Numbered from the stretch's first letter, positions 1,633-32,000 are shown. The stretch: 32,000 nucleotides of DNA from Candidatus Saccharimonadia bacterium (GCA_039738635.1 JBCLLN010000004.1:15404-47403); one strand, 5' to 3'. A program made the numbers and translations. The notes: generated from the letters alone by a model not told the origin.

Positions 1633-1713
1633 ATAATTTACGCCAGACGCTTTTCATCTTCCCATATGATAGATTACTGATGTATACTTAGCCTGAACAT
1701 TAGTAAACACAAA

Positions 1714-12291: not shown

Positions 12292-12675
12292 TTAATTGCT
12301 ATGTGCTTCAAGCCATGACGCGATTTCAGAAATATCTAGGTGGTCTGTTGAAACCTTAACGGTGAAATTCTCTAACTCCTTGGGGTTAGCAATTATATTG
12401 ATACCGTTCCTAGATAAAAAAATACTACAAATAGTTAAGGCGGTCCGTTTGTTACCATCAATAAACGGGTGATCCCCAATCAAATTCCTTAAATACACCG
12501 CTGCTTTTTCATATACTGTTACGTATTGTTGCTTTCCTAAGACCTCTTGTTTTGGTGCTTCAACAACTGATTTTAGGCGGCCTTCGTCGCGAACACCATG
12601 TGAGCCACCAAAATCCTCAACAACCTGGAAGTGCAACCGTAATACCTCTTCTATATCCAAGAACCTGACAGTCAT
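12292..12675 (-). CDS. doc: Doc (death-on-curing) Fic-family toxin
   Basis: Fic/Doc motif HPFIDGNKRTAL (HxFx[DN]GNKR). 127 aa. ATGA overlap with the upstream antitoxin. Confidence 0.9.
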   Translation of the reverse strand: MTVRFLDIEEVLRLHFQVVEDFGGSHGVRDEGRLKSVVEAPKQEVLGKQQYVTVYEKAAVYLRNLIGDHPFIDGNKRTALTICSIFLSRNGINIIANPKELENFTVKVSTDHLDISEIASWLEAHSN

Positions 12676-12890
12676 CTACTAGCTAAATTTTTAAGAGTTT
12701 GGCCGTATTTCTCTACAAATTTATCGTATTCTCGTAAAAGTTTTGTGTGGCTTTCGGGTTCATTCACAAGTTCAACTCTTATTTTTAGTGTGTCTCCACG
12801 CTTAGCGCCTAGTCGAGTAAGGTCTTTTTTGGACAATGTTACTCCTTCACTAGAACCAATTTGAATAAGTTTTTGGGTAGTTTCAATCAT
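12672..12890 (-). CDS. AbrB/MazE/SpoVT-fold antitoxin partner of Doc (72 aa)
   Basis: MIETTQKLIQIGSSEGVTLSKKDLTRLGAKRGDTLKIRVEL is a swapped-hairpin AbrB-like pattern. I moved the start from 13043 to ATG 12890, which sits 7 nt after a consensus -10 element. Confidence 0.75.
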   Translation of the reverse strand: MIETTQKLIQIGSSEGVTLSKKDLTRLGAKRGDTLKIRVELVNEPESHTKLLREYDKFVEKYGQTLKNLASR

Positions 12891-12897
12891 ATAATAC

Positions 12898-12925
12898 ATT
12901 ATAAGCATATTATAATATTTGTCAA
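12898..12925 (-). promoter_or_regulatory. Near-consensus sigma70-type promoter for the TA operon, implying a leaderless mRNA
   Basis: The minus strand reads TTGACA-16 nt-TATAAT-7 nt-ATG. The spacer contains the 12-nt palindrome ATATTATAATAT, a candidate operator. Confidence 0.6.
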
Positions 12926-13128
12926 CCCTCTCCCTTCCTCTTCTTGGTATAGTGGAAAGGTGGACGGGTCTAAAAATCATCAATTGGCGGAGAGGTATCC
13001 TGCGTTTATAGAACTTCGGACTACCATTTTCTCCTCGTTCCAACGTACATACTTCACACTTTTTTAAGAGGAGTAGCTCTAGAGAATAATCCGTTAGCGT
13101 GAAGCAGCTACTGACTCAACAAACCAGA

Positions 13129-14315: not shown

Positions 14316-14591
14316 TCAGGATTTTGATCGGCTTAACTTTTTGAGGAGCTCAACATCACCAACAATTAATGCCTTTTTCTTAGCTTTTGACCAGCCTTTA
14401 AGCTGTTTTTCCCGCTTTGCAGCATCAACTCGTTTAGTAAACTTTTCAGAATACACTATCTGAACTTCTCCATAGCGTTTAGTATAAGACGATTGATGTT
14501 TTTGATGCTGCAAAAGCCTAGTTTCTAAGTTGGTGGTCAAACCAACGTAGAAAAAGGCATTATCACATTCTAAAATATATATGTTATACAT
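14316..14591 (-). CDS. GIY-YIG nuclease-family protein (UPF0213-like, 91 aa)
   Basis: YILECDNAFFYVGLTTNLETRLLQH matches the GIY-(x10)-YVG...R..H pattern. The track ORF 14316..14699 reads through the tRNA, so I moved the start to ATG 14591. Confidence 0.8.
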   Translation of the reverse strand: MYNIYILECDNAFFYVGLTTNLETRLLQHQKHQSSYTKRYGEVQIVYSEKFTKRVDAAKREKQLKGWSKAKKKALIVGDVELLKKLSRSKS

Positions 14592-14615
14592 AGCAATCCT
14601 GAGCCTGTCGAAGGA

Positions 14616-14705
14616 TGGCGGAGAGGGAGGGATTCGAACCCTCGATGGAGTTGCCCCCATACTACTTTTCGAGAGTAGCGCCTTCAACCACTCGGCCACC
14701 TCTCC
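14616..14705 (-). tRNA. tRNA-Ser (anticodon CGA), 90 nt with encoded CCA
   Basis: The minus strand reads GGAGAGGTGGCCGAGTGGTTGAAGGCGCTACTCTCGAAAAGTAGTATGGGGGCAACTCCATCGAGGGTTCGAATCCCTCCCTCTCCGCCA. 7-bp acceptor stem GGAGAGG/CCTCTCC. Anticodon stem CTACT/AGTAG with loop CTCGAAA. Long variable arm. T-arm GAGGG-TTCGAAT-CCCTC. Confidence 0.92.
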
Positions 14706-20105: not shown

Positions 20106-20540
20106 ATGGGACGAAAAAATGAAGTTGATGAAGAAATCCTAGAAGACGAATTCCTGGATGAAGAACAGCCACAAGCCGAAGAATGGATGAGCGAAGAGGA
20201 GTTTGAAGGTCAGCTAGCGGTCGATGTCTATCAAACCACAGACAAGATTATAGTTAAGGCCCCAATAGCTGGAGTTAAGCCCGAAGATATTGATGTTGCC
20301 ATATCAGAAGATGTAGTGACTATCCGTGGGGATCGCAAGGACGAATTTGCGGTAGAGAAAGACAACTATTATGTCCAGGAGTGTTTCTGGGGTTCATTTA
20401 GCCGGTCGGTAATTCTTCCTACCTCTACGGTAGCCGATAAGGCTGAGGCTAGCCTCAAGGATGGTGTACTAACAATCCAAATCCCCAAGGTAGTCCAAGA
20501 AGACAAAATTAAAAAGATTAAAGTCAAAGCCAGCCTCTAG
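20106..20540 (+). CDS. hsp20: Hsp20/alpha-crystallin small heat-shock protein
   Basis: The alpha-crystallin domain pattern runs from LAVDVYQTTDKIIVKAPIAGVKPEDIDVAI through GSFSRSVILP to ASLKDGVLTIQIPK. AAGGAG RBS. Confidence 0.9.
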   Translation: MGRKNEVDEEILEDEFLDEEQPQAEEWMSEEEFEGQLAVDVYQTTDKIIVKAPIAGVKPEDIDVAISEDVVTIRGDRKDEFAVEKDNYYVQECFWGSFSRSVILPTSTVADKAEASLKDGVLTIQIPKVVQEDKIKKIKVKASL

Positions 20541-20642
20541 TATTTAATAGCTACCTATAGCCAGATAAGCAATCAAATAACAATAGTTTATATTTTATTA
20601 CCTTTTTTAGCTTTTATAAAACTAGACTTCACAAGTTTCAGA

Positions 20643-20676
20643 AAGGAGCCTCCTTATAAGGAGGCTCCTTGTTTTG
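20643..20676 (+). terminator. Rho-independent terminator between hsp20 and the pilin genes
   Basis: Perfect 28-nt palindrome AAGGAGCCTCCTTA/TAAGGAGGCTCCTT followed by GTTTTG. Confidence 0.7.
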
Positions 20677-20724
20677 ATTAGGATTACTGCTGGGATATTG
20701 AGTGCGTACTACCTATTATAACTA

Positions 20725-21147
20725 CTAGCCTAAAATACCGAATCCAACCCCCTTAATTGTAAAGCTAGCAATTCCATAGGACAATATAACTACCACTAAG
20801 CCAATAATCGCATAAAGGATAGTATTCTTAGCGGAGGTAATGCTCTTTTCATTACCCTGGCTTGTGACAAACTTAAGCCCACCGAGAATAAGCATCAGCA
20901 CTCCAATTGCGCCGGCTATAAATAGAAGAGCGTTAATTAAATTAGTAATTATTCCGCCAGGCCCAGTAAGGTTGGGATTTCCTTGCCCGCCAGCACAATT
21001 TATACCACCAGCAACGGTATTATTATCTGTACAGGCTCCCCCCGCTAAGGCGGGGTTGAGGGGAGTAGCTAGAACTAATAACAATAGCCCCGTGAATAGG
21101 GCTATTGTTATTAGTAAAACTCTCTGGCGAATTATATCAAGCATCAC
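20725..21147 (-). CDS. VirB2/TrbC-like T4SS pilin paralog 1 (140 aa)
   Basis: Signal/TM segment, mature N-terminal region with 2 Cys, then two TM helices joined by the conserved loop GGLKFVTSQGNEKSITSAKNTILYAIIG. Confidence 0.7.
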   Translation of the reverse strand: MMLDIIRQRVLLITIALFTGLLLLVLATPLNPALAGGACTDNNTVAGGINCAGGQGNPNLTGPGGIITNLINALLFIAGAIGVLMLILGGLKFVTSQGNEKSITSAKNTILYAIIGLVVVILSYGIASFTIKGVGFGILG

Positions 21148-21171
21148 TTGGTTATATGCCTTAGTAATAGT

Positions 21172-21546
21172 TTATCTTGAAGTTACTCCAGAACCCATAA
21201 TAACAAAGGTGACAATCGACCAGGCCATGATAGCAATAATGATTCCTATGATGGCATATAGAATGGTGTTCTTGGCCGACTCTACTGTCTTTTCGTTACC
21301 AGCACTAAAGACATACCTAAACCCACCCAATACAAGCATTGCCACCGCAAGAAAGCCAATAGTAAAGATAATTAGGTTAAAGACCGTTGTGATTTGGGCG
21401 GTTAAGTTAAAATTGGTGCCGGCGGGAACAACAGAATTAAAGCCAGTTTGCATTCGGTTACCTTGCGCAAAGACCTGAGATGCTACTAATGTTAGTGCTC
21501 CTGCTGAAGCGTAAATTGATTTCTTGATAGTGTTAGTTGTGATCAT
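21172..21546 (-). CDS. VirB2/TrbC-like T4SS pilin paralog 2 (124 aa)
   Basis: Signal peptide ...SQVFAQG. Loop GGFRYVFSAGNEKTVESAKNTILYAIIG between two TM helices. Confidence 0.7.
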   Translation of the reverse strand: MITTNTIKKSIYASAGALTLVASQVFAQGNRMQTGFNSVVPAGTNFNLTAQITTVFNLIIFTIGFLAVAMLVLGGFRYVFSAGNEKTVESAKNTILYAIIGIIIAIMAWSIVTFVIMGSGVTSR

Positions 21547-21648
21547 TATTTTCCTTTGTGATTATTAAATATTATTTGATACCAATTATATTCACTTAAT
21601 AGTACTTATGCAATAGTTTTTTTTATTTTAGTTGGGCTGTTCAAATTA

Positions 21649-21993
21649 CTAGGCGGTAATGGACACATTTACAAAGCTAGCAATGGCGAAAGCGCTTAGT
21701 GCAACTATAATCCCTACTATGGCATATAGAATAGTGTTCTTGGCTGTCGTGATCCTCTGCTCGTTACCCCCGGATGTTATATACATTATTCCACCCGCCA
21801 CTAAGGCAACCACGCTTAGCGCACCCGCTACAAATAACAAAGTACTAACTGTATTGGCTATTAGCTCAGCTGCAGTTGGGCCAGTACTAACAGCAGGCGG
21901 GAGAGTGGCATTATTAATAACCACAACAGCTAACGCCTTTTGTGGAAGTGCGCTTAATGCTATTGCTGTAAGTAGTGTGTATAGTTTCTTCAT
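21649..21993 (-). CDS. VirB2/TrbC-like T4SS pilin paralog 3 (114 aa)
   Basis: Signal peptide ...PQKALA. Loop GGIMYITSGGNEQRITTAKNTILYAIVG. ATGA overlap with the upstream gene. Confidence 0.7.
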   Translation of the reverse strand: MKKLYTLLTAIALSALPQKALAVVVINNATLPPAVSTGPTAAELIANTVSTLLFVAGALSVVALVAGGIMYITSGGNEQRITTAKNTILYAIVGIIVALSAFAIASFVNVSITA

Positions 21994-22694
21994 TTTTGTA
22001 ATTGAGTTTGTATAAAAAATAGTATACCATAAGCCGAGATAGAAATAACTAGCCCAGCTAGCGCGTAGATAATAGTCTTCTTGGCTTTTTTAATGCCTTC
22101 GCCCCCGCCAGAAGTGATGTACTGAATGCCACCTACTATTACAAATATAACTGCTAGTGCGCCACCCAAGAACAACGCAATGCCTATAACATTGTTTATT
22201 AATGTTGGTATGCCAGCGATTCCAAATGAGGCCTCGTTGACTGATACGTTTCGGGTAAATAGCTGCTTAGTGTTAACATCTTCAAATGCCAGATTAACCA
22301 AGAGCATTATAGCCCTAAATGATATTAGCAACACCAGGCCTGTCACTGCCTTAAAGATATTTTCTTTGCCCTTTTTTACTTGCTCTTCTTTGCCACCAGA
22401 CATAGTTATCTGAACAGCCGATACAATAACGATTAGCACTAACACAGCCCCAAAAATACTTGTTAATATTGCGACTACAAAATTTACTAGGGGCTGAGCT
22501 GTACTGGCGGGATCATATGTCGAACTGACGGGATCACCTAGAATCTCGTTACAAATTCTCTGGGGTATGACTATGCAATCAAAGCCTGCATGACTTCCAG
22601 CATTAGCCTTGATGGGTATTAATGCCACCACTCCAGCACCTATTACAACCACCAGCATCAGGCTAGCAAATACTAATTTAGCTTTTATATACAT
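21990..22694 (-). CDS. Fused tandem double pilin-domain protein (234 aa)
   Basis: Two pilin-like modules in one ORF: ...SAVQITMSGGKEEQVKKGKENIFKAVTGLVLL... and ...GGIQYITSGGGEGIKKAKKTIIYALAGLVI.... Each loop is flanked by TM helices. Confidence 0.65.
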   Translation of the reverse strand: MYIKAKLVFASLMLVVVIGAGVVALIPIKANAGSHAGFDCIVIPQRICNEILGDPVSSTYDPASTAQPLVNFVVAILTSIFGAVLVLIVIVSAVQITMSGGKEEQVKKGKENIFKAVTGLVLLISFRAIMLLVNLAFEDVNTKQLFTRNVSVNEASFGIAGIPTLINNVIGIALFLGGALAVIFVIVGGIQYITSGGGEGIKKAKKTIIYALAGLVISISAYGILFFIQTQLQK

Positions 22695-22788
22695 AATAGT
22701 TATACTACCATATTTATTTTTTATTATCTTTTTTCTAAGTTCTCTTTGGAATCCGAACTGGCAAATCAGTAAATCACATTCTCATAAC

Positions 22789-22888
22789 CTGTTAGAGGAC
22801 AGTCCTCTTCCAGATAGAGTTTATGTGATACTGTTATTCCATAAGATATAAGAACTGTCCTCTAACAGCACTTTTGCCACCAAAAGTG
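22789..22888. promoter_or_regulatory. Inverted repeats in the pilin/T4SS divergent control region
   Basis: 15-bp perfect arms CTGTTAGAGGACAGT (22789-22803) and ACTGTCCTCTAACAG (22854-22868). The palindrome CACTTTTG-CCAC-CAAAAGTG (22869-22888) follows immediately. Confidence 0.5.
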
Positions 22889-23337
22889 GATATTATAAAT
22901 AACAATAATATTAATTATTTCATTACTTTTGCAAGCAAGGCATTTGTCACTTTTGATAACCCCTAAAAGTAACCAAAAGAGTTTCCGACTGCTAAACAAT
23001 ACCTTCACAATCAAATAATATTCTTCTTTCTGTTTTTTCTTAAACGAACCTAAAGGTATCGGTCCAGCCGAGCTGGACTTGGCTGAAAATAACCAGATGC
23101 TAATAATTTATTTAATCTTTCTGATTATCCAGATAGTCGAGGGCTTCAATCGCAGCCTGGGCCCTAGAAAATATCCCCCCGACATCGAACATCAGAAAAT
23201 GAGTAGATGTTTTAAGCTCCTTACTTAAGAAGCTGTCTAAAGCATTATGCGATAGCAATAAAGCGAGTTCTTCTTAAGTAAGGAAGTAATACATTTATGA
23301 ATGCTTCTAGATGTAAGCTACCGTCGGGCAGTTTTAT

Positions 23338-23361
23338 ATTACTTTTGCTGTCAAAAGTAAT
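23338..23361. promoter_or_regulatory. 24-nt perfect palindrome ATTACTTTTG-CTGT-CAAAAGTAAT, candidate operator
   Basis: It shares the ACTTTTG-N4-CAAAAGT core with 22869-22888. The half-site ATTACTTTTGC recurs at 22922. It lies 107 nt upstream of ATG 23468. Confidence 0.5.
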
Positions 23362-23467
23362 AACTAAATAAAATAAATAATGATTATTATTTTATTACTT
23401 CAATATAGTGAACCACGACATTAAGTTGTAAATTTTGCAGTTAAGGATTATATTATAGATAGTCCTT

Positions 23468-24394
23468 ATGTATAAAAAGATTTTATTCTCGATAGTCTTT
23501 GCAATTGCCATATTTGGTGGCTTTTTTATTACCAATAGCTCTAACCAAGCCCAAGCCATAGCAGAACCCTGGAGGTGCGTTTGGCGGAATTCCGCTAAGA
23601 TTCAATGTGCAATATTGTGGGACTGGAAGAATGCTCCCTTTGTTAATGATCCAGCGTTTATCATGGCGGTGGTAGCTGGCACACCGACGGAGGAGTTAAA
23701 CAGCTACATAAATAAGATCGGTGAAGATTATGATGATGGAGATTATCCGCATAATACTGGTGATTGGTGGTATCAGCCTGATAAAAGCGCAGCCTATGGC
23801 TACCCAACCTTTTGCAGAGTAAATCGTGAGGATGGAGAAGGACCATCTGGAGGTCCCGCGGGTACCCCACAAAATGGTACTGAACCTAATGGACTTGTAT
23901 ATGGCTGTCTACATCTTATAAACAATAATCCTCTGCTTGCTTACCATGACGGCAATCCAGGCATGCAGTATGGAGGAGGTCTGTATCCTGTGCCTGCTGT
24001 TACTACGAATCCACGCTCCACCCCTAATTATTGGGTAATTGGTAAGGTGGAGAATGCGCTTAAAAAAGCCGATAACGAAGATTGTTCTATCCTAGATACC
24101 CATGACTGTCACCGAGCACACTCGAACGGCCCTGACTACGGTGGTGAAAAAATAAGGGATAATGAGTCCCCTCTGAGAACCCGGATTCAGGCGCTCGTAG
24201 CCTTCGCCGACAATGAGAACTCCTGTGAGAATAGTGTCGAACTAGATTTCATTCTGTGCCCTATATATAATACTGCTATCGATGGTATTGAGTGGCTTCT
24301 AGAAGGGCCGTTGATAGATATGCTGACTATTCAGCTTGATGATGATAATAAGATCATTCCTAGCATGGTGGGGGGGGGTGGTGGTGGTGGCTAA
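23468..24394 (+). CDS. Secreted Cys-rich protein (308 aa), first gene of the T4SS-like operon
   Basis: N-terminal signal/TM segment ILFSIVFAIAIFGGFFI...AQA. Multiple Cys. Gly/Pro-rich stretch. It ends in GGGGGGG*, encoded by the G9 + (GGT)n tract. Confidence 0.6.
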   Translation: MYKKILFSIVFAIAIFGGFFITNSSNQAQAIAEPWRCVWRNSAKIQCAILWDWKNAPFVNDPAFIMAVVAGTPTEELNSYINKIGEDYDDGDYPHNTGDWWYQPDKSAAYGYPTFCRVNREDGEGPSGGPAGTPQNGTEPNGLVYGCLHLINNNPLLAYHDGNPGMQYGGGLYPVPAVTTNPRSTPNYWVIGKVENALKKADNEDCSILDTHDCHRAHSNGPDYGGEKIRDNESPLRTRIQALVAFADNENSCENSVELDFILCPIYNTAIDGIEWLLEGPLIDMLTIQLDDDNKIIPSMVGGGGGGG

Positions 24395-24974
24395 TTTATT
24401 CTATATAGTTGTATTTTTGCTTTTAATATTCTCTAGTGCTCTACCGTTTGGACTAGACAACTACACCATCAAAAAAACTCTCCCCAAATTCATAGGGGCC
24501 GTGATACTAACGCAATTTTCCTTTGTAATTACTGTCGCAATAGTTGATTTCTTTAACCTAATGGGCCGGGTGGTCCCTAATATGATCTTTGGTTTGGGTA
24601 GTGTTGCCGTAGGGGGCGCCTGTAGTGGTAATATGTCAAACATCGGTGGGCTTAATAGCACTCTAGAACTATTGACTGGTGGCTTAATTGCTATTGCGGC
24701 GTTCTTTTTAGTTATCGTACTCGCAGTTGTTTTGTTCTTTGCTATGCTAGTGGCTTTTGTATATATGGCTATGCGATACCTTATAATCTATATTCTTATT
24801 ATTGCTGCACCACTGGCATTTGCCTGCTGGGTACTACCTGGCACCAATAAGCTATGGAGTGCTTGGTGGACTAATTTTATAAAGCTTAATGCAATGATTA
24901 TTGTAATAACAGCAATGCTTTCCTTGTCAGTTGTGCTATCTCAGGTTCTAATAATAACAACTGGAGAATGCTAA
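24336..24974 (+). CDS. VirB6/TrbL-like polytopic membrane protein (about 200 aa as annotated)
   Basis: 5-6 TM helices. Position upstream of the PrgI/VirB4 genes. The start is uncertain: TTG 24336, ATG 24339, or GTG 24378-24387 right after the G tract. It may be fused to the upstream ORF. Confidence 0.5.
   Translation: MMMIIRSFLAWWGGVVVVANLFYIVVFLLLIFSSALPFGLDNYTIKKTLPKFIGAVILTQFSFVITVAIVDFFNLMGRVVPNMIFGLGSVAVGGACSGNMSNIGGLNSTLELLTGGLIAIAAFFLVIVLAVVLFFAMLVAFVYMAMRYLIIYILIIAAPLAFACWVLPGTNKLWSAWWTNFIKLNAMIIVITAMLSLSVVLSQVLIITTGEC
24370..24378 (+). repeat. Homopolymeric G9 tract followed by (GGT)4
   Basis: atggtGGGGGGGGGtggtggtggtggctaa sits exactly where ORF 23468..24394 and the +1-frame ORF 24336..24974 overlap. 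Confidence 0.95.
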
Positions 24975-24977
24975 TAA

Positions 24978-25892
24978 ATGAGCAATATGATACTACAATT
25001 GATGGCGATCATGCTCCCCATCGTAGCGCTTTTGGCCGTCCCCAAGGCGCTTAAATGGACTACTAAGGGTATGAGCGCACTTGCTGGCGGGGCATTGGGG
25101 GCTATAGGTGGCAAGATGGGCGCTGCTGGCAGGGGCATGGGCAAGCAGGCTAAAAAACAAGGCCAAAAGGGCGTCAAATATGGCCAGGAGAAAACCGCTG
25201 AATTTGGCAAAACAAAATTGGCAGAGAAAGGATTTGGCACAAAGAGCTGGAATAATCGACAGAAAAACAAAGCTTCCGAGGCTTCTAGAGCTAAGAGTAG
25301 AGATGAGATTGCTGATCTGAATAAAGAAGACCTAACGACAAGTGCAGAAAGGGCAGCTGTGGCAGCTGCACGCAATCCTACTAGCTATAATCTGGGTGTA
25401 CATAGGGCTCACCTAGACAGGCTAGCTGAGACTAGCAATACAAAAGGTCTAGAAGCCGCAGCGAGACAATATAGGGACGCCGGTAGGGCTGAGGGTATGA
25501 CAGATGATACTATAAATGCTAATTGGCAAAGAGATCTAGGTAAAAACATCCCAGCCATGGCTAAAAAGAATCCTATGCTAAGTGGTCATCTAGAGAATTT
25601 AGGGAGTAGGGCAACAAATCTGGTTGCTGTTACCGGCGGACACGGAGCCGGTGAAGACTATCACCACACTACCCAGGGCGACTATAGCGACCTAGGCGAA
25701 GAAAGACTAAAGTCAATGGATCCAACAGTGCTAAAGGATATTGTGACTTCTATGAGTGCTACTGGTGCTGTAGTAACTAATTTCAAATTTGACAAAGCTA
25801 CCATAGCTCGCGCACTATCTAGTAGAGGGGGGACGGGGTTTGAGGATACTGGAGGAAGAAAAGCCTTAGAGGAAATATATGCTAAGATATAA
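24978..25892 (+). CDS. Membrane-anchored Gly/Lys/Ala-rich hypothetical T4SS-associated protein (304 aa)
   Basis: One N-terminal TM helix, then GGALGAIGGKMGAAGRGMGKQAKKQGQKG and a charged helical region. TAATAAATG junction with the preceding gene. Confidence 0.55.
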   Translation: MSNMILQLMAIMLPIVALLAVPKALKWTTKGMSALAGGALGAIGGKMGAAGRGMGKQAKKQGQKGVKYGQEKTAEFGKTKLAEKGFGTKSWNNRQKNKASEASRAKSRDEIADLNKEDLTTSAERAAVAAARNPTSYNLGVHRAHLDRLAETSNTKGLEAAARQYRDAGRAEGMTDDTINANWQRDLGKNIPAMAKKNPMLSGHLENLGSRATNLVAVTGGHGAGEDYHHTTQGDYSDLGEERLKSMDPTVLKDIVTSMSATGAVVTNFKFDKATIARALSSRGGTGFEDTGGRKALEEIYAKI

Positions 25893-25961
25893 CCCTCACC
25901 ACACCACTAAGAACTATGAAATACCCTCCACCACACCACCACTACCAGGAACAAGTCCCTA

Positions 25962-26786
25962 ATGGGTGAATACAAAGTACCTACAGATGTCGAGGCCGAA
26001 GATAAAATCCTAGGCCCCTTATCCTTGCGTCAAGCAATATATGTCATTATAGGCCTGGCCTGGGGAGCGCTAATGTGGAGGATATTTACTGATAATTATA
26101 TCCCAATGGCCATATCCATTCTACCTGTCACCGGCTTTTTTTTACTGCTGGGCTTTGGTAGGCGCCAGGAGCAAAGCTTTGAACATTATTTTGTGGCTGT
26201 GGTGCAGTATTTTACAATACCCAGAATGAGAATATGGGATAAGGACTTACAGCAAGAGGAGCTAGTAACTTCAGACAAGATAGCTCCGGTAATAGTCAGC
26301 CATAAAAACATAACGCATGGTAGCTTGGAGCAATTAGCACTAGCTCTTGATACTCACGGCGCACAAAAAGACCCTACCATCCAACTACCAGATGAATCTG
26401 GCCAGACAGCAAACCTCAGCCAAAGAATCATTAGTCCAACCCAGCTGGCACCCAACGACACCAAGCCTACAATCACTCACGATGCAACACTCCAAGATGA
26501 TGTCCTTGATACCACTAGTGAGCGTAGCCAGGAAGTTAATGAACTTCTAGAAAATGTTACAGTAGATATCCATCGCCAGGCCCTGCACGACATCACAGCC
26601 CAGCTTAACGATAATAATTCAACCCCCACTAACCCAGCTACTAGTTCCCAGCCTACCATAGATAATGCTATAATTAATAAGGTTATGCTACAAAGCAATA
26701 ACCTATCGGTAGCACAGATAGCCAAAGAAGCTGGGGAGAATATCATTCCAGCTGGGCAATCAATAAACATTACCGCTACTAGCTAG
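25962..26786 (+). CDS. PrgI-family (VirB3-like) membrane protein with a long polar C-terminal extension
   Basis: N-terminus YKVPTDVEAEDKILGPLSLRQAIYVIIGLAWGAL plus a second TM helix is the PrgI/Tn916-Orf17-type pattern. It sits upstream of VirB4, as in Gram-positive conjugation modules. Confidence 0.6.
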   Translation: MGEYKVPTDVEAEDKILGPLSLRQAIYVIIGLAWGALMWRIFTDNYIPMAISILPVTGFFLLLGFGRRQEQSFEHYFVAVVQYFTIPRMRIWDKDLQQEELVTSDKIAPVIVSHKNITHGSLEQLALALDTHGAQKDPTIQLPDESGQTANLSQRIISPTQLAPNDTKPTITHDATLQDDVLDTTSERSQEVNELLENVTVDIHRQALHDITAQLNDNNSTPTNPATSSQPTIDNAIINKVMLQSNNLSVAQIAKEAGENIIPAGQSINITATS

Positions 26787-26792
26787 CTAAAT

Positions 26793-27647
26793 ATGGCAAT
26801 CAATACTCCCAACCAAGCGTATATAGATAGTACAACCCCCCCTAAGAAAAAAGTGATATCCACTCAAAGCACTCAGGGTAATCTTAATTTTGCTGAAATC
26901 CATGATGGCGTAGTAATTATGCGCGATGGTAGCTTACGGGCAATTATAATGTGCTCACCCACCAACTACGACCTCAAAAGCCCCAACGAGAAAGATGCTA
27001 TAGAGTTTGCCTATCAGGGCTTCTTAAACGGCCTGCACTTTCCTATCCAGATATCTATTCAGTCTCGCAAGATAGACCTCAAATCGTATCTAGATATGCT
27101 AGATAAAAAGCTTGGAGAGCAATCCAACCCAATGCTAGCAGGGCTGATGGAGGACTATATATACAATATTAGAGATCTGCTCAACACGGTCAATATTATG
27201 GACAAAAAATTTTTTGTGGTAGTTCCTTTCTTTGTGGCAGAGGCAGCTAAGGGTAGTTTTTTCAAACAGCTAGCTGCCTCGTTTGTGCCGGCTCATGATG
27301 TCAAGCAAAGCACAAAGCAATTTGACCAACGCAAACGAGAGCTGGTGGGGCGTACTAATGCTGTTGCCCAAGGGCTGGCGGCAATTGGAGTCAGGGCAGC
27401 CGTATTAAAAACCCAAGAAATAATAGAGCTGTTTTATGATTCGTATAATCTAGAAGAGGCGCTAGCCGAATCCCTAGTAAACACCCAGGATATGACAACT
27501 CCTATCGTACAAAGGGAGGGGGGTCTGCCCCAGCCATACACGGCCGAGCCTAAAGAAGTAGATCCACCCGATTTATATGATTCGGCTCGTGCTGATGTTA
27601 ATAACGATGTTGCTAGTGGTGCGAATGGTAATGGAGGAAAAGTATAG
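26793..27647 (+). CDS. VirB4 N-terminal-domain-like protein (284 aa), apparently a split-off part of VirB4
   Basis: NFAEIHDGVVIMRDGSLRAIIMCSPTNYDLKSPNEKDAIEFAYQGFLNGLHFPIQISIQSRKIDL resembles the N-terminal region of Gram-positive VirB4/TraE/Orf16 proteins. Its stop TAG overlaps the GTG start of the ATPase ORF (TAGTG). Confidence 0.45.
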   Translation: MAINTPNQAYIDSTTPPKKKVISTQSTQGNLNFAEIHDGVVIMRDGSLRAIIMCSPTNYDLKSPNEKDAIEFAYQGFLNGLHFPIQISIQSRKIDLKSYLDMLDKKLGEQSNPMLAGLMEDYIYNIRDLLNTVNIMDKKFFVVVPFFVAEAAKGSFFKQLAASFVPAHDVKQSTKQFDQRKRELVGRTNAVAQGLAAIGVRAAVLKTQEIIELFYDSYNLEEALAESLVNTQDMTTPIVQREGGLPQPYTAEPKEVDPPDLYDSARADVNNDVASGANGNGGKV

Positions 27648-29479
27648 TGGCCTTTGGTAAGAAAAAACCACCCCCTATTGTGTCTGCTCAAAGCGCACAG
27701 GAACAGCAGGCAACTATCAAATTCCAGCAAGGAGTCGCCACGCTTAGAGACATCATAGCGCCAAGTAGCTTTGAGATACAAAACAACTACATCAAAATAG
27801 GTGGGCGCTATGCTCGCACCTTATTTGTATATGCTTATCCCCGGATGCTTTTTACTGGCTGGCTATCACCCATTATTAATCTAGACGAGGTCATTGATAT
27901 TAGTCTAAATATTGAGCCCGTAGAAAGCGAAATTGTGCTCAAAAACCTTAAAAAGAAGGTGACGCAACTAGAGGCAAGCAACACCATCAACGAAGAGAAG
28001 GGCCAAGTCCGAGACCCAATGCTTGAAGCTCAGATAGTTGATGCCGAGGAGTTGCGCGATAAACTACAAATAGGGGAGGACAGGTTCTTTAGGTTTGGGT
28101 TGTCTATAACTGTCTATGGCAATGACGAAAAACAACTCACCGAGATTGGCAGCAAAATAGAAAGTATATTGGGCTCAACTCTTATTTATAGCAAGATAGC
28201 CAGCCTACAAATGGTCCAAGGCTTTAACACGACCCTACCTATGTGCACCGACCAACTACAAATTAAGCGCAATATGGATACCGGTGCCATTTCCACCAGC
28301 TTCCCCTTTACTACCGCCAATCTTAGCCAAGACAACGGAATACTGTATGGCATTAACCGCCACAATAATGGCCTGGTGCTTTTTGATAGATTTAGCCTAG
28401 AAAACGCCAATATGGTGGTGTTCGCTAAGTCTGGGGCTGGCAAGAGCTTCGCCGTTAAGCTAGAGTGCTTACGCTCGCTTATGATGGGCACCGAGATACT
28501 AGTCATTGATCCTGAAAACGAATATCAATCACTCTGTAACGCAGTGGGTGGGAGCTTTTTGCACTTAAGCCTTGCCAGTGATACGCGCATTAACCCCTTT
28601 GATATTCCAGAAACCATAGACCCAGAAGAAGCCGATAATGCCCTGCGGGCTAATATCATTATGTTGCATGGACTATTAAGGCTAATGACCGGGCAAATGA
28701 ATCCTGCCGAGCAGGCTGATATGGATTTAGCACTCATCAACACTTACGCCGAAAAGGGAATTACTAACGATCCACTAACCCACAAATCCGTGCCTCCAAT
28801 AATGACCGATTTATATAATACCCTTAATGCTATGGCCGGAAATGGCCCAGCATTGGCAGCCAGATTAAGGCGCTATACCGAGGGCACATTTGCTGGTATA
28901 TTCTCCGAACAAAGTAATGTAGATCTAAATAGTAGCTTTGTGGTTTTTAATACCCGCGACCTTGAAGACGAGCTAAGACCAATAGGAATGTATATTACCC
29001 TAAATTACATCTGGAATAAAGTTAAAACCGATAGGCGCAAAAGAATCCTAGTGGTTGATGAGGCTTGGCAATTATTACAGTACGAGGACTCGGCGCAGTT
29101 TATGTTTAGTATTGCCAAGCGGGCTCGTAAATACTACCTAGGTCTGACCACTATCTCCCAAGATGTTGAGGATTTCTTACAAACACGGCTTGGTAGGGCA
29201 ATTGTAAATAACTCAAGCTTACAGCTACTACTCAAGCAGAGCCCATCGGCGGTCAATATCATCACCGAAACTTTTAAGCTAACCGAAGCAGAAAGTATGT
29301 CCCTATCACAATTTCCCATAGGGGAGGGTTTGTTCTTTGCCGGACTAAGCCATGTGATACTACATATTATGGGATCCCCAGCCGAGGAACAGCTTATAAC
29401 AACCGACCCTAAAGCATTGTTAGAGCGCCAAATGGCAGATCAGGCAGCAGCCACTAGCAAAGTAAATAATACTAAATAG
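27647..29479 (+). CDS. virB4: VirB4/TraC/TrsE-family T4SS ATPase (610 aa, lacks the usual N-terminal ~250 aa)
   Basis: Walker A VFAKSGAGKSF and Walker B RILVVDEAWQLL. IAPSSFEIQNNYIKIGGRYARTLFVYAYPRMLFTGWLSPII is a typical VirB4 mid-region. GGAGGA RBS before the GTG start. Confidence 0.9.
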   Translation: MAFGKKKPPPIVSAQSAQEQQATIKFQQGVATLRDIIAPSSFEIQNNYIKIGGRYARTLFVYAYPRMLFTGWLSPIINLDEVIDISLNIEPVESEIVLKNLKKKVTQLEASNTINEEKGQVRDPMLEAQIVDAEELRDKLQIGEDRFFRFGLSITVYGNDEKQLTEIGSKIESILGSTLIYSKIASLQMVQGFNTTLPMCTDQLQIKRNMDTGAISTSFPFTTANLSQDNGILYGINRHNNGLVLFDRFSLENANMVVFAKSGAGKSFAVKLECLRSLMMGTEILVIDPENEYQSLCNAVGGSFLHLSLASDTRINPFDIPETIDPEEADNALRANIIMLHGLLRLMTGQMNPAEQADMDLALINTYAEKGITNDPLTHKSVPPIMTDLYNTLNAMAGNGPALAARLRRYTEGTFAGIFSEQSNVDLNSSFVVFNTRDLEDELRPIGMYITLNYIWNKVKTDRRKRILVVDEAWQLLQYEDSAQFMFSIAKRARKYYLGLTTISQDVEDFLQTRLGRAIVNNSSLQLLLKQSPSAVNIITETFKLTEAESMSLSQFPIGEGLFFAGLSHVILHIMGSPAEEQLITTDPKALLERQMADQAAATSKVNNTK

Positions 29480-29544
29480 CATTAGCACTATCAAAAGCAT
29501 AGCTAGTTTGATACAATCAATATTATAGATTGGGTGAATAATAT

Positions 29545-32000
29545 ATGGCTGGTGGTGCATCAAAACCAAGCAAACCTAGTGGAGGCGGTGGCAAGCCTCA
29601 GTCTTCGGGTAGAGTAAGCCCCACCGATGGTGGTGGCTCCACACCACCACCAGACCAGTCCAACTCTGGTGGTGGGCCCACTAAGAGTTCTCCCGTAAGC
29701 GACGACGCCCAAAAAAAGGCTGGTGATACTGCAGGGAAGGGGCACGAACAACTCAAAGAAAACATCCACGATGCCAAAGAAGTAGCCAAGGCCTTTAAGC
29801 CAGGCTCAAATACTAAGGGAGATATCAAGGAGGTAAAACAAGCTTTCCAGGAAAAGGGCGCCAAGGGCGCAGCTGGGGAAGTAGGCCGCAAAGCTGTGGG
29901 TAAGGGGGTGGAGGCAGGCGTCACAGCAGTCACAGGAGGAGCTGCCAAGCCAATTGCCAAGCCAATTGGAAAAATAGTAGAAAAGGCCCTCAAAAAAGAA
30001 AATCTCAAAAAAATCGCAATTGGTATTATAGCAGTATTAACTATACCCCTACTGCTAATTGGTATAGCTCTATATTTCATTGCTAACCCATGGAAATTGG
30101 TTGAAAAGGTTCTTACTGACGACAAGATGAGGTCTTTTGCAATTCAAGCAGTAAAGCTTGCAGCAAGAGAACTAATTAGTAATGATGAACTATATAAAAA
30201 GTATGGTTTTGTTGAGTATAAGCCCGGCACTGCCCTAGCATCACATGTACCCCCACCCGCACTCGCAGAACACCCCCTCGTCGGATCCTTAGCATATAAA
30301 ATGCTTTTAGTGGACTATAAAAAAGCCCAGTGGCAGACAATTAGGGCGCCGGATTGTCCTTATAGATATACAACGAAGGCATTGATGGGACCTGAGGGGC
30401 AAATCGTTAACGCCATAGATGAGATATATTTGGATACCAGCTTTGGTGCAAATAACACCGAAAATAAAGCCAAAAGGGGTGATTTTTTGGTTGATTATTG
30501 TATTGGCAAATCAATGCCTTTATATAATATGATGGTCCGCACATCCAACACCCGCAAGGTAAATAAATTTAGCAATACCAACCTCATCTACGCCGAGCCT
30601 AAAGACTCGCCAAATATTAAAGGCAAGTCGCCCAAAGAAATCAAAGATTATGTCTATACTAAAACCTACAAGCGTATTACGCCACCAGACGATGATGAGA
30701 TACCCAAAACAGAGATACCAGATGTAGATAACTTCATCAAAGATGTTCGCGCGGCACTAAGGGACAATCTAGACCCTGACAGTCTATCCTATACATTTAC
30801 GGGTATAGATGAACAGTCCAATACCAAAAAGACCCTCTGTGCTTTCTCTAAGGGCTACTTAAAAAAGTCGAATCTAAAGAAAGGCATCTTATCTAGAATA
30901 AATTCTGGGCAACGCTCTGGAATTAAAACCAATACTCTGTCGTCCACGAGGGAGCTGGGATTACTTACCAATGAAGAGCTAAGCCCAACATTTAAACAGC
31001 TCGACGGCTGGGCCAGTAGCCGTGCCTACTCTCAAAATCTCTATGGTTCCCAGAGTGGTGAGGCTATAGACCCCGAAAGGCTCGGAAATACTTCCTATGG
31101 CGGTAACTATACCGAAGTGCTGGCCTTGCTTTACGATATAAGAGAAATATGTGAGGGCGGTGTTATTGATGATGAGCAAGAGATATTAGACGCCGACTAC
31201 GAAGCTCTCCAGAACCTAATAGTAACTCAGTCTAATGGTAAATTTATAAATAGAGATAGCTTTGGGATTGAACAGCTAATGCAAGGTGTAATTCGTATGG
31301 GTGCTGGATCGGCTATATCAGGGCTGGAAGCCACTGGCCAACAAAACTTTAATAACCAATCACAGGGCTATCGGGCTCTATCTAACCAATATATGATGAG
31401 TATTGGGGGGAGGTTCCTCACCAAGGAAGAAGCCAATAAAGCCGATTTGCTAGCCGAGAACACCCGCCGTGAAGTAGAAAATAAAAATGGCATTGCCTAC
31501 CGGCTTTTTGGGGAAGACAATATTCGCTCGCTGGCTAATGTAATGCAATACGAAACTCCCCGAACACTGGGTGAATTTGAGCGTAAGACTAAGCAATTTA
31601 TAGCTAGCATATCTAACCCCATTAAACTTCTCGCCGATTTGCACTCTAGCTTTAGCTATATCGCACTAGGGCAACACAACCAAGCCTTTGCTGCAGGCGC
31701 CACTGGGGATGCTTATATGCGCCTCAACACCGTTGGCCTACCTGCCGAAGACGCTATTGATTCGGAAGGTAGGCCAATTAAGATGATTGAAAACTCCGAC
31801 TATATCCAGGAATTACTCAAGAGTGGCACACCTGGGAGTGGCACACCTGACCAAAAAAGAGTTCTGGGGTATTTTGAAAAATGCTCCAAATCCAACATCC
31901 CCACCAAGGATGTCTTTGCTAGGCTATATGATGTAGAGATTGAATCTGGGGAGGCAGTAATAGATAGGAGTAGAGACAATATGCAGTTTAAGAATGATTA
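29545..32000 (+). CDS. Large membrane-anchored protein, 5' partial view (more than 818 codons, continues past the window)
   Basis: In my manual translation the frame from ATG 29545 has no stop up to base 32000. Gly/Pro/Lys-rich N-terminal region, then a single TM helix IAIGIIAVLTIPLLLIGIALYFIA, then a large domain. It is absent from the ORF track only because it has no stop. Confidence 0.75.
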   Translation, partial: MAGGASKPSKPSGGGGKPQSSGRVSPTDGGGSTPPPDQSNSGGGPTKSSPVSDDAQKKAGDTAGKGHEQLKENIHDAKEVAKAFKPGSNTKGDIKEVKQAFQEKGAKGAAGEVGRKAVGKGVEAGVTAVTGGAAKPIAKPIGKIVEKALKKENLKKIAIGIIAVLTIPLLLIGIALYFIANPWKLVEKVLTDDKMRSFAIQAVKLAARELISNDELYKKYGFVEYKPGTALASHVPPPALAEHPLVGSLAYKMLLVDYKKAQWQTIRAPDCPYRYTTKALMGPEGQIVNAIDEIYLDTSFGANNTENKAKRGDFLVDYCIGKSMPLYNMMVRTSNTRKVNKFSNTNLIYAEPKDSPNIKGKSPKEIKDYVYTKTYKRITPPDDDEIPKTEIPDVDNFIKDVRAALRDNLDPDSLSYTFTGIDEQSNTKKTLCAFSKGYLKKSNLKKGILSRINSGQRSGIKTNTLSSTRELGLLTNEELSPTFKQLDGWASSRAYSQNLYGSQSGEAIDPERLGNTSYGGNYTEVLALLYDIREICEGGVIDDEQEILDADYEALQNLIVTQSNGKFINRDSFGIEQLMQGVIRMGAGSAISGLEATGQQNFNNQSQGYRALSNQYMMSIGGRFLTKEEANKADLLAENTRREVENKNGIAYRLFGEDNIRSLANVMQYETPRTLGEFERKTKQFIASISNPIKLLADLHSSFSYIALGQHNQAFAAGATGDAYMRLNTVGLPAEDAIDSEGRPIKMIENSDYIQELLKSGTPGSGTPDQKRVLGYFEKCSKSNIPTKDVFARLYDVEIESGEAVIDRSRDNMQFKND

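What the first reader, a model, noticed from the sequence alone, without database searches (positions are those of the whole stretch)
20725..32000. Chromosomal T4SS-like locus: Gram-positive-type core plus four VirB2-like pilin genes, with no relaxase or coupling protein in view
Seen in sequence:
- a VirB4 ATPase with Walker A AKSGAGKSF and Walker B ILVVDEAW;
- a PrgI/VirB3-like protein directly upstream of it;
- a multi-TM VirB6-like protein;
- a secreted Cys-rich protein;
- a large single-TM protein downstream;
- four divergently transcribed genes carrying the loop G-G-x-x-[YF]-[IV]-x-S-x-G-N-E-x5-A-K-N-T-I-L-Y-A-I-[IV]-G between two TM helices, which is VirB2/TrbC pilin topology.

The PrgI-then-VirB4 synteny is that of Firmicute/Tn916-type conjugation modules. 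In the 11 kb visible there is no relaxase, VirD4-type coupling ATPase, integrase or replication gene. The left neighbours are housekeeping genes (hsp20, comF).

Inference: this may not be a conjugative element. It could be a dedicated secretion, attachment or DNA-exchange machine of a host-dependent small-genome bacterium. The 1328-aa ART/kinase-like protein at 1714-5700 is a candidate substrate.
Basis: partly seen in the sequence, partly recalled or inferred. Interest (0 to 1): 0.75.

Follow-up and report, generated by a model that had tools for sequence, protein, structure and literature searches.

The report
Known Saccharibacteria chromosomal type IV secretion locus

Summary
Window 20725-32000 holds four divergently transcribed T4SS_pilin genes, a VirB6/TrbL-like gene, PrgI/VirB3, a TrsD/TraC-like gene, a VirB4 ATPase of the Firmicute CD1110 type, and the start of a large single-TM protein. 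In relatives that protein ends in a VanY cell-wall peptidase domain.

No relaxase, coupling protein, integrase or replication gene is in the window or within 10 kb of VirB4 in annotated relatives. In relatives the locus runs into recF-dnaN-dnaA. At least 573 GTDB species carry a VirB4 relative. Of 50 fully flanked loci, all keep PrgI-TrsD-VirB4 and 40 have recF and dnaN within 10 kb. It is a core, origin-proximal locus, not an ICE.

Corrections:
- PrgI is not directly upstream of VirB4.
- The 'secreted Cys-rich' and 'multi-TM' proteins, and the ORF after them, are three pieces of one VirB6 gene. It is broken by a frameshift in a G9 run and by TAA-TAA-ATG.
- The fourth pilin is a tandem double pilin.
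- The substrate proposal has no support.

Side finding: a REP-like palindrome lies in the divergent promoter region.

The parts
20643..20670 (.). Perfect 14+14 palindromic hairpin between the converging 3' ends of hsp20 and pilin 1. It is the probable bidirectional terminator and the left edge of the locus.
   Evidence: I16: 100% complementary arms, followed by a T-rich tail.
20725..21147 (-). Pilin 1 (140 aa): leader, two TM helices, loop GGLKFVTSQGNEKSITSAKNTILYAIIG.
   Evidence: PF18895 41.5 bits against cutoff 26.6; motif and TM segments.
21172..21546 (-). Pilin 2 (124 aa).
   Evidence: PF18895 44.4 bits; exact motif.
21649..21993 (-). Pilin 3 (114 aa).
   Evidence: PF18895 38 bits and TrbC/VirB2 PF04956 20 bits, below its cutoff. 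357 homologs, most with both Pfam families, some named 'pilin' by NCBI. The AlphaFold model is a helical hairpin, helices 41-72 and 78-113.
21990..22694 (-). Pilin 4 (234 aa): tandem double pilin with two PF18895 domains and four TM helices after the leader. It is the first gene of the pilin operon.
   Evidence: PF18895 57 bits in 2 stretches; weak NCBIfam Mbov_0395 pilin-like hit; domain alignment. The same double architecture is in L001, L002 and L084-L086.
22695..23467 (.). 773-nt divergent intergenic region between the pilin operon and virB6. It contains a REP-like element (22734-22808) ending in the palindrome AGAGGACAGTCCTCT (22794-22808), with an inverted second half-site at 22857-22868.
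   Evidence: Relatives have only 84-380 nt here.
23468..24394 (+). virB6/TrbL-like gene, piece 1: signal peptide plus a Cys-rich (8 Cys) extracellular N-terminal domain. The frame is lost inside the G9 run at 24370-24378.
   Evidence: tblastn to the intact 899-aa L084 ortholog, residues 1-326; G9 is the only G/C run of 8 or more in the window; 100% match to P0121, the only fragment-length homolog.
24336..24974 (+). virB6/TrbL-like gene, piece 2: polytopic TM core. It ends at TAA TAA (24972-24977).
   Evidence: 53% identical to L084 residues 338-621, read across the stops. Homologs carry precomputed PF19590 TrbL_3. AlphaFold model has pLDDT 81. The top Foldseek PDB hits are TrwI/VirB6 chains but are not significant.
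24978..25892 (+). virB6/TrbL-like gene, piece 3: last TM helix plus a hydrophilic C-terminal domain. It starts at an ATG directly after the double stop, with GGAG at 24963-24966, 11 nt upstream.
25962..26786 (+). PrgI/VirB3-like protein (274 aa, two TM helices, long C-terminal tail).
   Evidence: PF12666 45 bits against cutoff 27; present in 50 of 50 fully flanked loci.
26793..27647 (+). TrsD/TraC-like protein (284 aa, soluble). It probably supplies the N-terminal domain that this VirB4 lacks. Its stop overlaps the virB4 start by one base.
   Evidence: NCBIfam TrsD E 1.7e-4, below cutoff; orthologs annotated PF26593 TraC-like; present in 50 of 50 loci. VirB4 aligns only from position 182 of the CD1110 profile.
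27647..29479 (+). VirB4-type ATPase (610 aa), with Walker A AKSGAGKSF and Walker B ILVVDEAW.
29545..32000 (+). Large single-TM protein (818 aa visible, TM at about 153-183), cut by the window end. It is the ortholog of the 1068-1082-aa proteins of relatives, which end in a VanY peptidase domain.
   Evidence: 52% identity, colinear with L086 residues 9-813. The VanY domain is at L086 residues 964-1077, beyond the window. The visible part has no Pfam hit.

Best explanation
The locus is this genome's copy of the Patescibacteria-clade chromosomal type IV secretion system. That system derives from the conjugation machinery of monoderm bacteria (MPF-FATA) and has been repurposed for the epibiotic lifestyle.

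Shown here:
- The parts list: VirB4 ATPase, a separate TrsD/TraC-like protein, PrgI/VirB3, a VirB6/TrbL-like polytopic protein with a large Cys-rich extracellular domain, four VirB2-like pilin genes, and the start of a cell-wall hydrolase ortholog.
- The lack of relaxase, T4CP and integrase.
- Conservation of the gene order across Saccharimonadia, next to recF-dnaN-dnaA.

Inferred, from established knowledge of T4SSs and from the cited papers:
- VirB4 hexamers, anchored by PrgI/VirB3 and the VirB6 channel, extract the pilins from the membrane and polymerise them into a tube.
- The downstream VanY and lysozyme/CHAP enzymes open peptidoglycan.
- The tube acts as a contact-dependent conduit between the epibiont and its host cell.

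Because there is no coupling protein or relaxase, the system is not a conjugation device.

My best guess on direction is uptake of host macromolecules, with nucleic acids the leading candidate. The parts list is analogous to the archaeal Ced DNA-import system. Effector export is the main alternative. I put roughly 45% on import, 35% on export and 20% on adhesion or another role. The 0.9 confidence is for the identity of the system, not for the direction.
For: - Family assignments: with VirB4 above NCBIfam's curated cutoff for the CD1110 family.
- Best solved relative of VirB4 is a Firmicute VirB4.
- Same gene order in relatives at 75-84% VirB4 identity, ending in VanY or M23 and lysozyme/CHAP genes and then recF-dnaN-dnaA, with no relaxase, T4CP or integrase Pfam family.
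- At least 573 GTDB species representatives carry a relative.
- Of 50 fully flanked loci, 50 have PrgI, TrsD and VirB4, 48 have the VirB6 core, 41 have pilins, and 40 have recF and dnaN within 10 kb.
- Literature: the cluster SEML1_0006-0019, including its pilins, is essential for epibiotic growth of Southlakia epibionticum and lacks recognizable coupling and relaxase proteins (PMC10633639). A phylum-wide survey reports a distinct VirB4 clade, TrsD, PrgI, VirB6, pilin arrays, rare relaxases and dnaA proximity (PMC12102498). comEC is dispensable for growth, and a conduit or uptake role has been proposed (PMC12857230). A cultivated patescibacterium takes up host RNA and shows tubular structures that may be T4SS pili (bioRxiv 10.64898/2026.06.21.733656).
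- VirB4 also has a weak CedB hit (E 1.4e-13, far below cutoff).
Against: - The window stops before the hydrolase domains and the origin genes. Those features are inferred from relatives and not seen in this genome, and its own contig could not be fetched.
- The virB6 gene is broken into three ORFs in this assembly. If that is real, the machine might be inactive or altered here.
- Direct hmmscan did not recover TrbL_3 for the window protein or its orthologs. The VirB6 call rests on precomputed Pfam hits, topology, gene position and non-significant Foldseek hits.
- No significant structural match to a solved VirB2 pilin was found.
- Direction and substrate are unknown. No pilus made of these pilins has been demonstrated.
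Confidence: 0.9

Rival explanations
1. The locus is an integrative conjugative element, or the decayed remnant of one, of the Firmicute type. Its relaxase, coupling protein and integrase would lie just outside the window.
For: VirB4 meets the curated cutoff of a conjugation-ATPase family (CD1110). The PrgI-TrsD-VirB4 order matches Gram-positive conjugation modules (PMC12102498). The window ends 2.5 kb after virB4, so its own downstream DNA is unseen. Mobile-element traces are nearby: a REP-like element and a Y1 transposase remnant.
Against: In six annotated relatives the 10 kb downstream holds cell-wall hydrolases and then recF-dnaN-dnaA, with no relaxase, T4CP or integrase. Gene order and position are conserved in 40-50 of 50 species-level loci, and at least 573 species carry the system. 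GC content is not distinct from the flanks. Published surveys find relaxases in only 103 Patescibacteria genomes, and only 15 of the 109 relaxase genes lie close to virB4.
Confidence: 0.03
2. The machine is the same Patescibacteria T4SS, but it works outward. It exports protein effectors or toxins into the host bacterium, as effector-translocating T4SSs do, and the pilus serves as the delivery tube.
For: Wang et al. propose 'DNA or protein delivery' and note the system may export proteins. T4CP-less effector or toxin T4SSs exist, namely Bordetella Ptl and Brucella VirB, as stated in PMC12102498. The window encodes large proteins of unknown function, such as the 1328-aa ORF at 1714-5700.
Against: No effector or secretion signal is known. 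No T4CP is near the locus, and the distant T4CP homolog was not essential in S. epibionticum. The organism's auxotrophies and the RNA-uptake observations point towards import.
Confidence: 0.3
3. The pilins and VirB4 build only an adhesive or sensory surface filament for host attachment. Nothing is translocated through it.
For: Four divergent pilin paralogs (23-42% identity) resemble the variable pilin arrays thought to adapt to host surfaces in Bartonella and Anaplasma. The VirB6 extracellular domain evolves fast: about 30-38% identity where VirB4 is 84%.
Against: Host adhesion in Saccharibacteria is already attributed to type IV pili. A channel-type VirB6 and dedicated peptidoglycan hydrolases are retained and essential in the model species.
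Confidence: 0.12

Closest known systems
T4SS cluster SEML1_0006-0019 of Candidatus Southlakia epibionticum ML1 (Wang et al. 2023, Cell; PMC10633639) and the Patescibacteria-clade T4SS surveyed by Quiñonero-Coronel et al. 2025 (PMC12102498)
   Same: Same class (Saccharimonadia). Same parts: VirB4, TrsD, PrgI/VirB3, VirB6, a VirB2-like pilin array, and peptidase and lysozyme genes downstream of virB4. Same absence of relaxase and nearby T4CP. Same chromosomal position near the origin in relatives.
   Different: Four pilin genes (five pilin domains) here, against six pilins reported for S. epibionticum. In this assembly virB6 is split into three ORFs. An SBP_bac_1 gene that lies between hsp20 and the pilins in the closest relatives is absent. 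A REP-like element sits in the divergent promoter region. I could not align this locus directly with the ML1 genome.
MPF-FATA conjugation modules of Firmicute ICEs and plasmids (CTn2/CD1110-type, pCF10 PrgI, pGO1 TrsD)
   Same: A VirB4 of the CD1110 family above the curated cutoff, a PrgI/VirB3 homolog, a TrsD-like protein upstream of VirB4, a polytopic VirB6-like protein, and large cell-wall hydrolases.
   Different: No relaxase, coupling protein, oriT or integrase. It is chromosomal and core, not mobile. It has VirB2-like pilins, which Gram-positive conjugation systems generally lack.
Mycoplasma ICE transfer genes (Mbov_0395 pilin-like protein, Mbov_0397 VirB4)
   Same: A wall-less or monoderm lineage pairing a VirB4 ATPase with a small pilin-like two-TM protein. 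VirB4 hits NF045975 at E 1.6e-83 and pilin 4 hits NF045849 at E 4.7e-7.
   Different: Both hits are below the curated cutoffs. The Mycoplasma genes belong to a mobile ICE.
Ced DNA-import system of Sulfolobales (CedA, CedA1/A2, CedB)
   Same: A minimal set of VirB4-like ATPase, polytopic membrane protein and VirB2-like pilins, with no relaxase or T4CP, which works in import rather than export.
   Different: Only weak sequence similarity: CedB 50 bits against a cutoff of 700. It is an archaeal envelope, and no PrgI or TrsD is described for it. This is a functional analogy only.

Membership tests
Patescibacteria-clade chromosomal T4SS (MPF-FATA-derived) | VirB4 ATPase related to monoderm (MPF-FATA) VirB4, with intact Walker motifs | tested here: met
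   NF045971 368.7 bits against cutoff 325; PF19044 at E 1.7e-26; 4AG5 at E 4e-51; motifs in the translation; nearest homologs named Saccharibacteria or Patescibacteria. No phylogenetic tree was built.
Patescibacteria-clade chromosomal T4SS (MPF-FATA-derived) | TrsD/TraC-like protein encoded next to virB4 | tested here: met
   26793-27647 hits NCBIfam TrsD at E 1.7e-4, below the curated cutoff. Positional orthologs carry PF26593 TraC-like. Present in 50 of 50 loci.
Patescibacteria-clade chromosomal T4SS (MPF-FATA-derived) | PrgI/VirB3 homolog | tested here: met
   PF12666 45 bits against cutoff 27.
Patescibacteria-clade chromosomal T4SS (MPF-FATA-derived) | VirB6/TrbL-type polytopic membrane protein | tested here: inconclusive
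   Homologs carry precomputed PF19590 TrbL_3 (53 of 55), and topology and gene position fit. Direct hmmscan gave no hit. The Foldseek top hits are TrwI/VirB6 chains at E 2-4 and TM about 0.3. The gene is interrupted in this assembly.
Patescibacteria-clade chromosomal T4SS (MPF-FATA-derived) | Array of VirB2-like pilin genes beside the core genes | tested here: met
   Four genes above the PF18895 gathering score. Paralog identity of 23-42% matches the published range of mean 25% and maximum 54%.
Patescibacteria-clade chromosomal T4SS (MPF-FATA-derived) | No relaxase and no coupling protein in the cluster | tested here: met
   None among the window ORFs. None within ±10 kb of virB4 in the five annotated relatives that have downstream DNA, L001-L003, L085 and L086; L084 stops 2.4 kb past virB4. 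This genome's own DNA beyond base 32000 was not seen.
Patescibacteria-clade chromosomal T4SS (MPF-FATA-derived) | Peptidoglycan hydrolases downstream of virB4 | tested here: inconclusive
   The ORF from 29545 is 52% identical to the VanY-domain protein of L086, but the catalytic domain lies beyond the window end. The lysozyme/CHAP gene is seen only in relatives.
Patescibacteria-clade chromosomal T4SS (MPF-FATA-derived) | Core-genome position near dnaA/dnaN | tested here: inconclusive
   Not visible in the window. In relatives recF and dnaN lie within 10 kb in 40 of 50 loci, and dnaA is seen in L086. The left flank (CMAS, methyltransferase, comF, hsp20) is shared with L085.
Patescibacteria-clade chromosomal T4SS (MPF-FATA-derived) | Required for epibiotic growth | not testable with these tools
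   Shown by Tn-seq only for S. epibionticum ML1 (PMC10633639).
Integrative conjugative element / conjugative T4SS | Relaxase (MOB) and oriT | tested here: not met
   No relaxase family in the window ORFs or in annotated relatives. oriT cannot be searched without a relaxase family.
Integrative conjugative element / conjugative T4SS | VirD4/TcpA-type coupling ATPase | tested here: not met
   The only P-loop T4SS ATPase present is VirB4. None in the relatives' flanks.
Integrative conjugative element / conjugative T4SS | Integrase, attachment sites, patchy strain distribution | tested here: not met
   No integrase family found. Gene order and neighbours are conserved across species.
VirB2/TrbC pilin superfamily | Sequence membership | tested here: met
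   PF18895 is above cutoff for all four genes. PF04956 TrbC is sub-threshold for pilin 3 (20 bits against 27.9). Most homologs carry both families.
VirB2/TrbC pilin superfamily | Leader peptide followed by a two-helix hydrophobic hairpin with a short loop | tested here: met
   Hydropathy segments. The AlphaFold model has helices 41-72 and 78-113 with pLDDT above 90 in the hairpin.
VirB2/TrbC pilin superfamily | Structural match to a solved conjugative pilin | tested here: inconclusive
   Foldseek against PDB gave no hit with E of 0.001 or less. An archaeal conjugation pilin (8DFU) appears at rank 28 with E 4.4. A helical hairpin is too generic a fold to discriminate.
VirB2/TrbC pilin superfamily | Assembly into an extracellular pilus | not testable with these tools
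   Only suggestive tubular structures have been reported in another patescibacterium.

The most novel reading that the evidence does not exclude
The G9 tract inside virB6 (24370-24378) may be a genuine slipped-strand phase-variation switch, and the TAA-TAA-ATG junction a genuine gene fission. This lineage would then toggle, or remodel, an otherwise essential host-interface T4SS. It might do so by making the fast-evolving Cys-rich extracellular domain as a separate secreted protein, for example between attached and free 'swarmer' states. The REP-like element inserted in the divergent pilin/virB6 promoter region could add further lineage-specific regulation.
Probability: 0.08. Interest if true: 0.55.

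Novelty: already known. Interest (0 to 1): 0.22.

Why it matters
The system matters. It is the first T4SS shown to be essential for the growth of the bacterium that carries it. It is the only monoderm-type T4SS with VirB2-like pilins. It is also a leading candidate for how ultrasmall epibiotic bacteria draw on their hosts.

This window adds only another copy. Its value is confirmatory: the gene order, the separate TrsD module, the tandem double pilin and the origin-proximal position all hold in one more lineage.

Two small lineage-specific oddities could be followed up if reads or strains are available. One is the interrupted virB6 gene. The other is the REP-like element in the promoter region.

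Tried and rejected
- Fetching the window's own contig beyond base 32000 failed. Exact-protein look-ups for VirB4, PrgI and P0001 found nothing on record. The cluster look-up gave no accession. The genome scan returned relatives only, at 73% identity or less.
- Direct Pfam scans did not recover TrbL_3 for the repaired VirB6 protein or its orthologs, although precomputed hits exist (against 16, 38).
- PDB sequence searches with the pilin and VirB6 profiles gave only spurious TM or coiled-coil hits. TrsD gave none.
- Foldseek on the pilin model was uninformative.
- I first read the conserved 75-nt element upstream of the pilin operon as a T4SS operator or leader RNA. I rejected that. It is absent from the other 85 T4SS loci. 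In metagenomes the palindrome lies next to unrelated genes, with no pilin or T4SS gene nearby. In three contigs it lies next to RAYT-like Y1 transposases.
- I considered a DNA-uptake-sequence reading and rejected it: there are only two copies of the 12-mer in 32 kb.
- The first metagenome pattern found nothing.
- Rfam found only a tRNA-Ser.
- Promoter-like sites were not enriched over shuffles.
- The 1328-aa 'substrate' candidate has no Pfam, NCBIfam or PDB hit, and at over 1200 aa it is too long for the structure tool.

Full report
WHAT IS IN THE WINDOW

On the minus strand there are four small genes at 20725-21147, 21172-21546, 21649-21993 and 21990-22694. Each passes Pfam's gathering score for PF18895 T4SS_pilin.

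On the plus strand, transcribed divergently, there are:
- three ORFs at 23468-25892;
- a PrgI-family gene (25962-26786; PF12666, 45 bits against 27);
- a 284-aa gene (26793-27647);
- a 610-aa ATPase (27647-29479) matching P-loop_TraG, AAA_10 and DUF87;
- an ORF that starts at 29545 and runs off the window after 818 residues, with one TM helix.

The ATPase passes NCBIfam's curated cutoff for NF045971, 'VirB4-like conjugal transfer ATPase, CD1110 family' (368.7 bits against 325). Its best solved relative is the VirB4 C-terminal domain of Thermoanaerobacter, 4AG5 (E 4e-51).

The left neighbours are a comF-like phosphoribosyltransferase gene and a 144-aa gene whose positional orthologs are annotated HSP20. 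A perfect 14+14 hairpin at 20643-20670 separates hsp20 from the last pilin gene.

CORRECTIONS TO THE OBSERVATION

1. PrgI is not directly upstream of VirB4. The 284-aa gene between them is a TrsD/TraC-like protein. It gives a weak NCBIfam TrsD hit (E 1.7e-4), and its orthologs are annotated PF26593 TraC-like. VirB4 aligns to the CD1110 profile only from position 182. The N-terminal part of a canonical VirB4 is therefore missing and is plausibly supplied by this separate protein. The published survey reports the same.

2. The 'secreted Cys-rich protein', the 'multi-TM VirB6-like protein' and the ORF after them are three colinear pieces of one gene. The closest relative (L084; VirB4 84% identical) has a single 899-aa TrbL_3 protein here. 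tblastn aligns its residues 1-326 to 23468-24334 in one frame and residues 338-621 to 24372-25226 in another, reading across two stop codons.
- The frame change lies in a run of nine G's at 24370-24378. This is the only G or C homopolymer of 8 or more in the 32 kb. Removing one G gives ...SMVGGVVVVANLFY, which matches the relative's VGGIVAVANLFY.
- The second break is TAA-TAA followed directly by ATG, with GGAG 11 nt upstream.
- Among 55 database homologs, every one except this genome's own 308-aa fragment and a short 342-aa partial hit is a single protein of 600-870 aa.
- I cannot tell whether this is an assembly error, a pseudogene, phase variation or a gene fission.

3. The fourth gene is a tandem double pilin with two degenerate copies of the motif. 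That architecture is conserved in relatives.

WHAT THE ORGANISM AND THE CONTEXT SAY

VirB4 homologs at 73-84% identity are abundant and, where named, come from Candidatus Saccharibacteria or Patescibacteria.

I could not fetch the window's own contig, so I used relatives. Two at about 82% VirB4 identity (L085, 337 kb; L086, 193 kb) share the window's left flank. Their order is: CMAS, methyltransferase, comF, HSP20, four pilins, one TrbL_3 gene, PrgI, TraC-like, VirB4, a 1068-1082-aa VanY-domain protein, an unknown gene of about 320 aa, a lysozyme/CHAP protein, and then recF, dnaN and dnaA. More distant relatives (L001-L003) have the same plan, with M23 and VanY hydrolases. No relaxase, coupling ATPase or integrase family is annotated in any of these flanks.

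The window's truncated last ORF is 52% identical and colinear with the L086 VanY protein. That protein's catalytic domain (residues 964-1077) would lie just past the window end.

Across the 50 loci with full 10-kb flanks:
- PrgI, TrsD and VirB4 are present in all 50;
- the VirB6 core is present in 48;
- pilins are present in 41;
- recF and dnaN lie within 10 kb downstream in 40.

This is a core-genome, origin-proximal locus, not a mobile one.

INDEPENDENT STRUCTURAL CHECKS

An AlphaFold model of pilin 3, built from 83 homologs, gives a confident two-helix hairpin after a disordered leader. That is the VirB2 topology, but it is too generic for Foldseek to discriminate.

A model of the VirB6 TM core has pLDDT 81. 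The TrwI/VirB6 chains of the R388 T4SS are its four best PDB matches, but at non-significant scores. I treat both results as consistent with the assignments but inconclusive.

HOW IT MOST LIKELY WORKS

Shown: the parts list, the absence of DNA-processing genes, and the conservation.

Inferred from established T4SS biology and the cited papers: VirB4, with its TrsD module, is anchored by PrgI/VirB3 and the VirB6 channel. It extracts the pilins from the membrane and polymerises them. The VanY and lysozyme/CHAP enzymes open peptidoglycan. The resulting tube links the epibiont and its host.

Direction is unknown. I lean towards uptake of host macromolecules, for four reasons:
- no coupling protein is associated with the cluster;
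- comEC-dependent competence is dispensable for growth in the model species;
- the lineage cannot make nucleotides;
- a cultivated patescibacterium has been reported to take up host RNA and to show tubular structures that may be T4SS pili.

Effector export and pure adhesion remain open. The parts list resembles the archaeal Ced import system in function only (weak CedB hit).

COMPARISON WITH WHAT IS KNOWN

Wang et al. 2023 described this cluster in Southlakia epibionticum (SEML1_0006-0019). They call it closest to Gram-positive conjugative T4SSs, with essential pilins and no recognizable coupling or relaxase protein, and suggest that it may not move DNA.

Quiñonero-Coronel et al. 2025 surveyed the phylum. 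They report a distinct VirB4 clade next to MPF-FATA; TrsD, PrgI, VirB6 and VirB2 arrays of 2-11 genes, abundant in Saccharimonadia; rare relaxases; and proximity to dnaA.

A 2025 FEMS review presents it as a new T4SS type.

The 'Tn916-type' label is loose. The suggestion that the 1328-aa protein at 1714-5700 is a substrate has no support.

SIDE FINDING

The divergent intergenic region is 773 nt here, against 84-380 nt in relatives. It contains a 75-nt element (22734-22808) that is 93-95% identical to two tandem copies at the same place in L084. That is far more conserved than the flanking genes.

The element ends in the palindrome AGAGGAC-N-GTCCTCT, with an inverted second half-site 44 nt away. 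It is absent from the other 85 T4SS loci.

In metagenomes the palindrome occurs in 28 stretches, usually as TCACAWWW at a fixed 15-nt offset from CTGTTAGAGGAC-N-GTCCTCT(AACAG). It is almost always intergenic, and no T4SS genes are nearby.

In three contigs it lies within about 50 nt of a 204-205-aa IS200-like Y1 transposase gene. In one of these it flanks the gene on both sides, which is the arrangement of REP elements and their RAYT transposases. The window itself holds a 28-aa N-terminal remnant of such a transposase at 1411-1494 on the minus strand.

I read the element as a REP-like mobile palindrome that landed in the pilin/virB6 promoter region of this lineage. I do not read it as a T4SS regulator, although it could affect expression.

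VERDICT

The novelty class is 'already known'. Interest is low, because the window adds another copy of a published system plus two minor lineage-specific oddities.

Noticed in passing
window 24370-24378 and 24972-24980: virB6 is interrupted twice. There is a +1 frameshift inside a G9 run, the only G/C homopolymer of 8 or more in the 32 kb. There is also a TAA-TAA-ATG junction with an upstream GGAG. Every full-length homolog found is a single 600-870-aa protein. The cause could be an assembly error, a pseudogene, phase variation or a gene fission.
   Followed up: partly
window 22734-22868; L084 5259-5333 and 5380-5454; L087-L114: A REP-like element lies in the divergent pilin/virB6 intergenic region, with a TCACA box at a fixed 15-nt offset from the palindrome CTGTTAGAGGAC-N-GTCCTCT. 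It is 93-95% identical to two tandem copies in the closest relative. In metagenomes the palindrome is intergenic, multi-copy, and in three contigs adjacent to RAYT-like Y1 (IS200-type) transposase genes.
   Followed up: partly
window 1411-1494 (-): A 28-aa remnant (MPSRNIIKHFEHDSYYYIYNRGVAKQPV) of the N-terminus of the same Y1 transposase family, followed by stop codons. It is probably a decayed RAYT gene.
   Followed up: partly
window 21990-22694 (-); L001, L002, L084-L086: The pilin gene nearest the divergent promoter is a tandem fusion of two pilin domains (188-241 aa). The fusion is conserved in relatives down to 75% VirB4 identity. I did not find this fusion mentioned in the passages I read.
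   Followed up: partly
window 20540-20725 compared with L084 1922-3268, L085 2607-3953 and L086 2391-3731: The closest relatives carry a 446-448-aa SBP_bac_1 solute-binding protein gene between hsp20 and the pilin array. This genome lacks it and has only 184 nt with a strong hairpin.
   Followed up: no
window 1540-1640: A purine-rich, imperfect tandem repeat of TTGAAAGA(A)-like units lies just upstream of the 1328-aa ORF.
   Followed up: no
window 1714-5700 (+): A 1328-aa acidic protein with no signal peptide or TM helix apparent in its translation and no Pfam, NCBIfam or PDB sequence hit.
   Followed up: partly
window 12292-13043 (-): A Fic/DOC-family gene (127 aa, PF02661) has a 123-aa ORF overlapping its start. 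This is a possible toxin-antitoxin pair.
   Followed up: no
window 14316-14705 (-): A GIY-YIG nuclease-domain ORF whose listed 5' end overlaps a tRNA-Ser(CGA) gene at 14616-14705. The true start is probably downstream of the tRNA.
   Followed up: no
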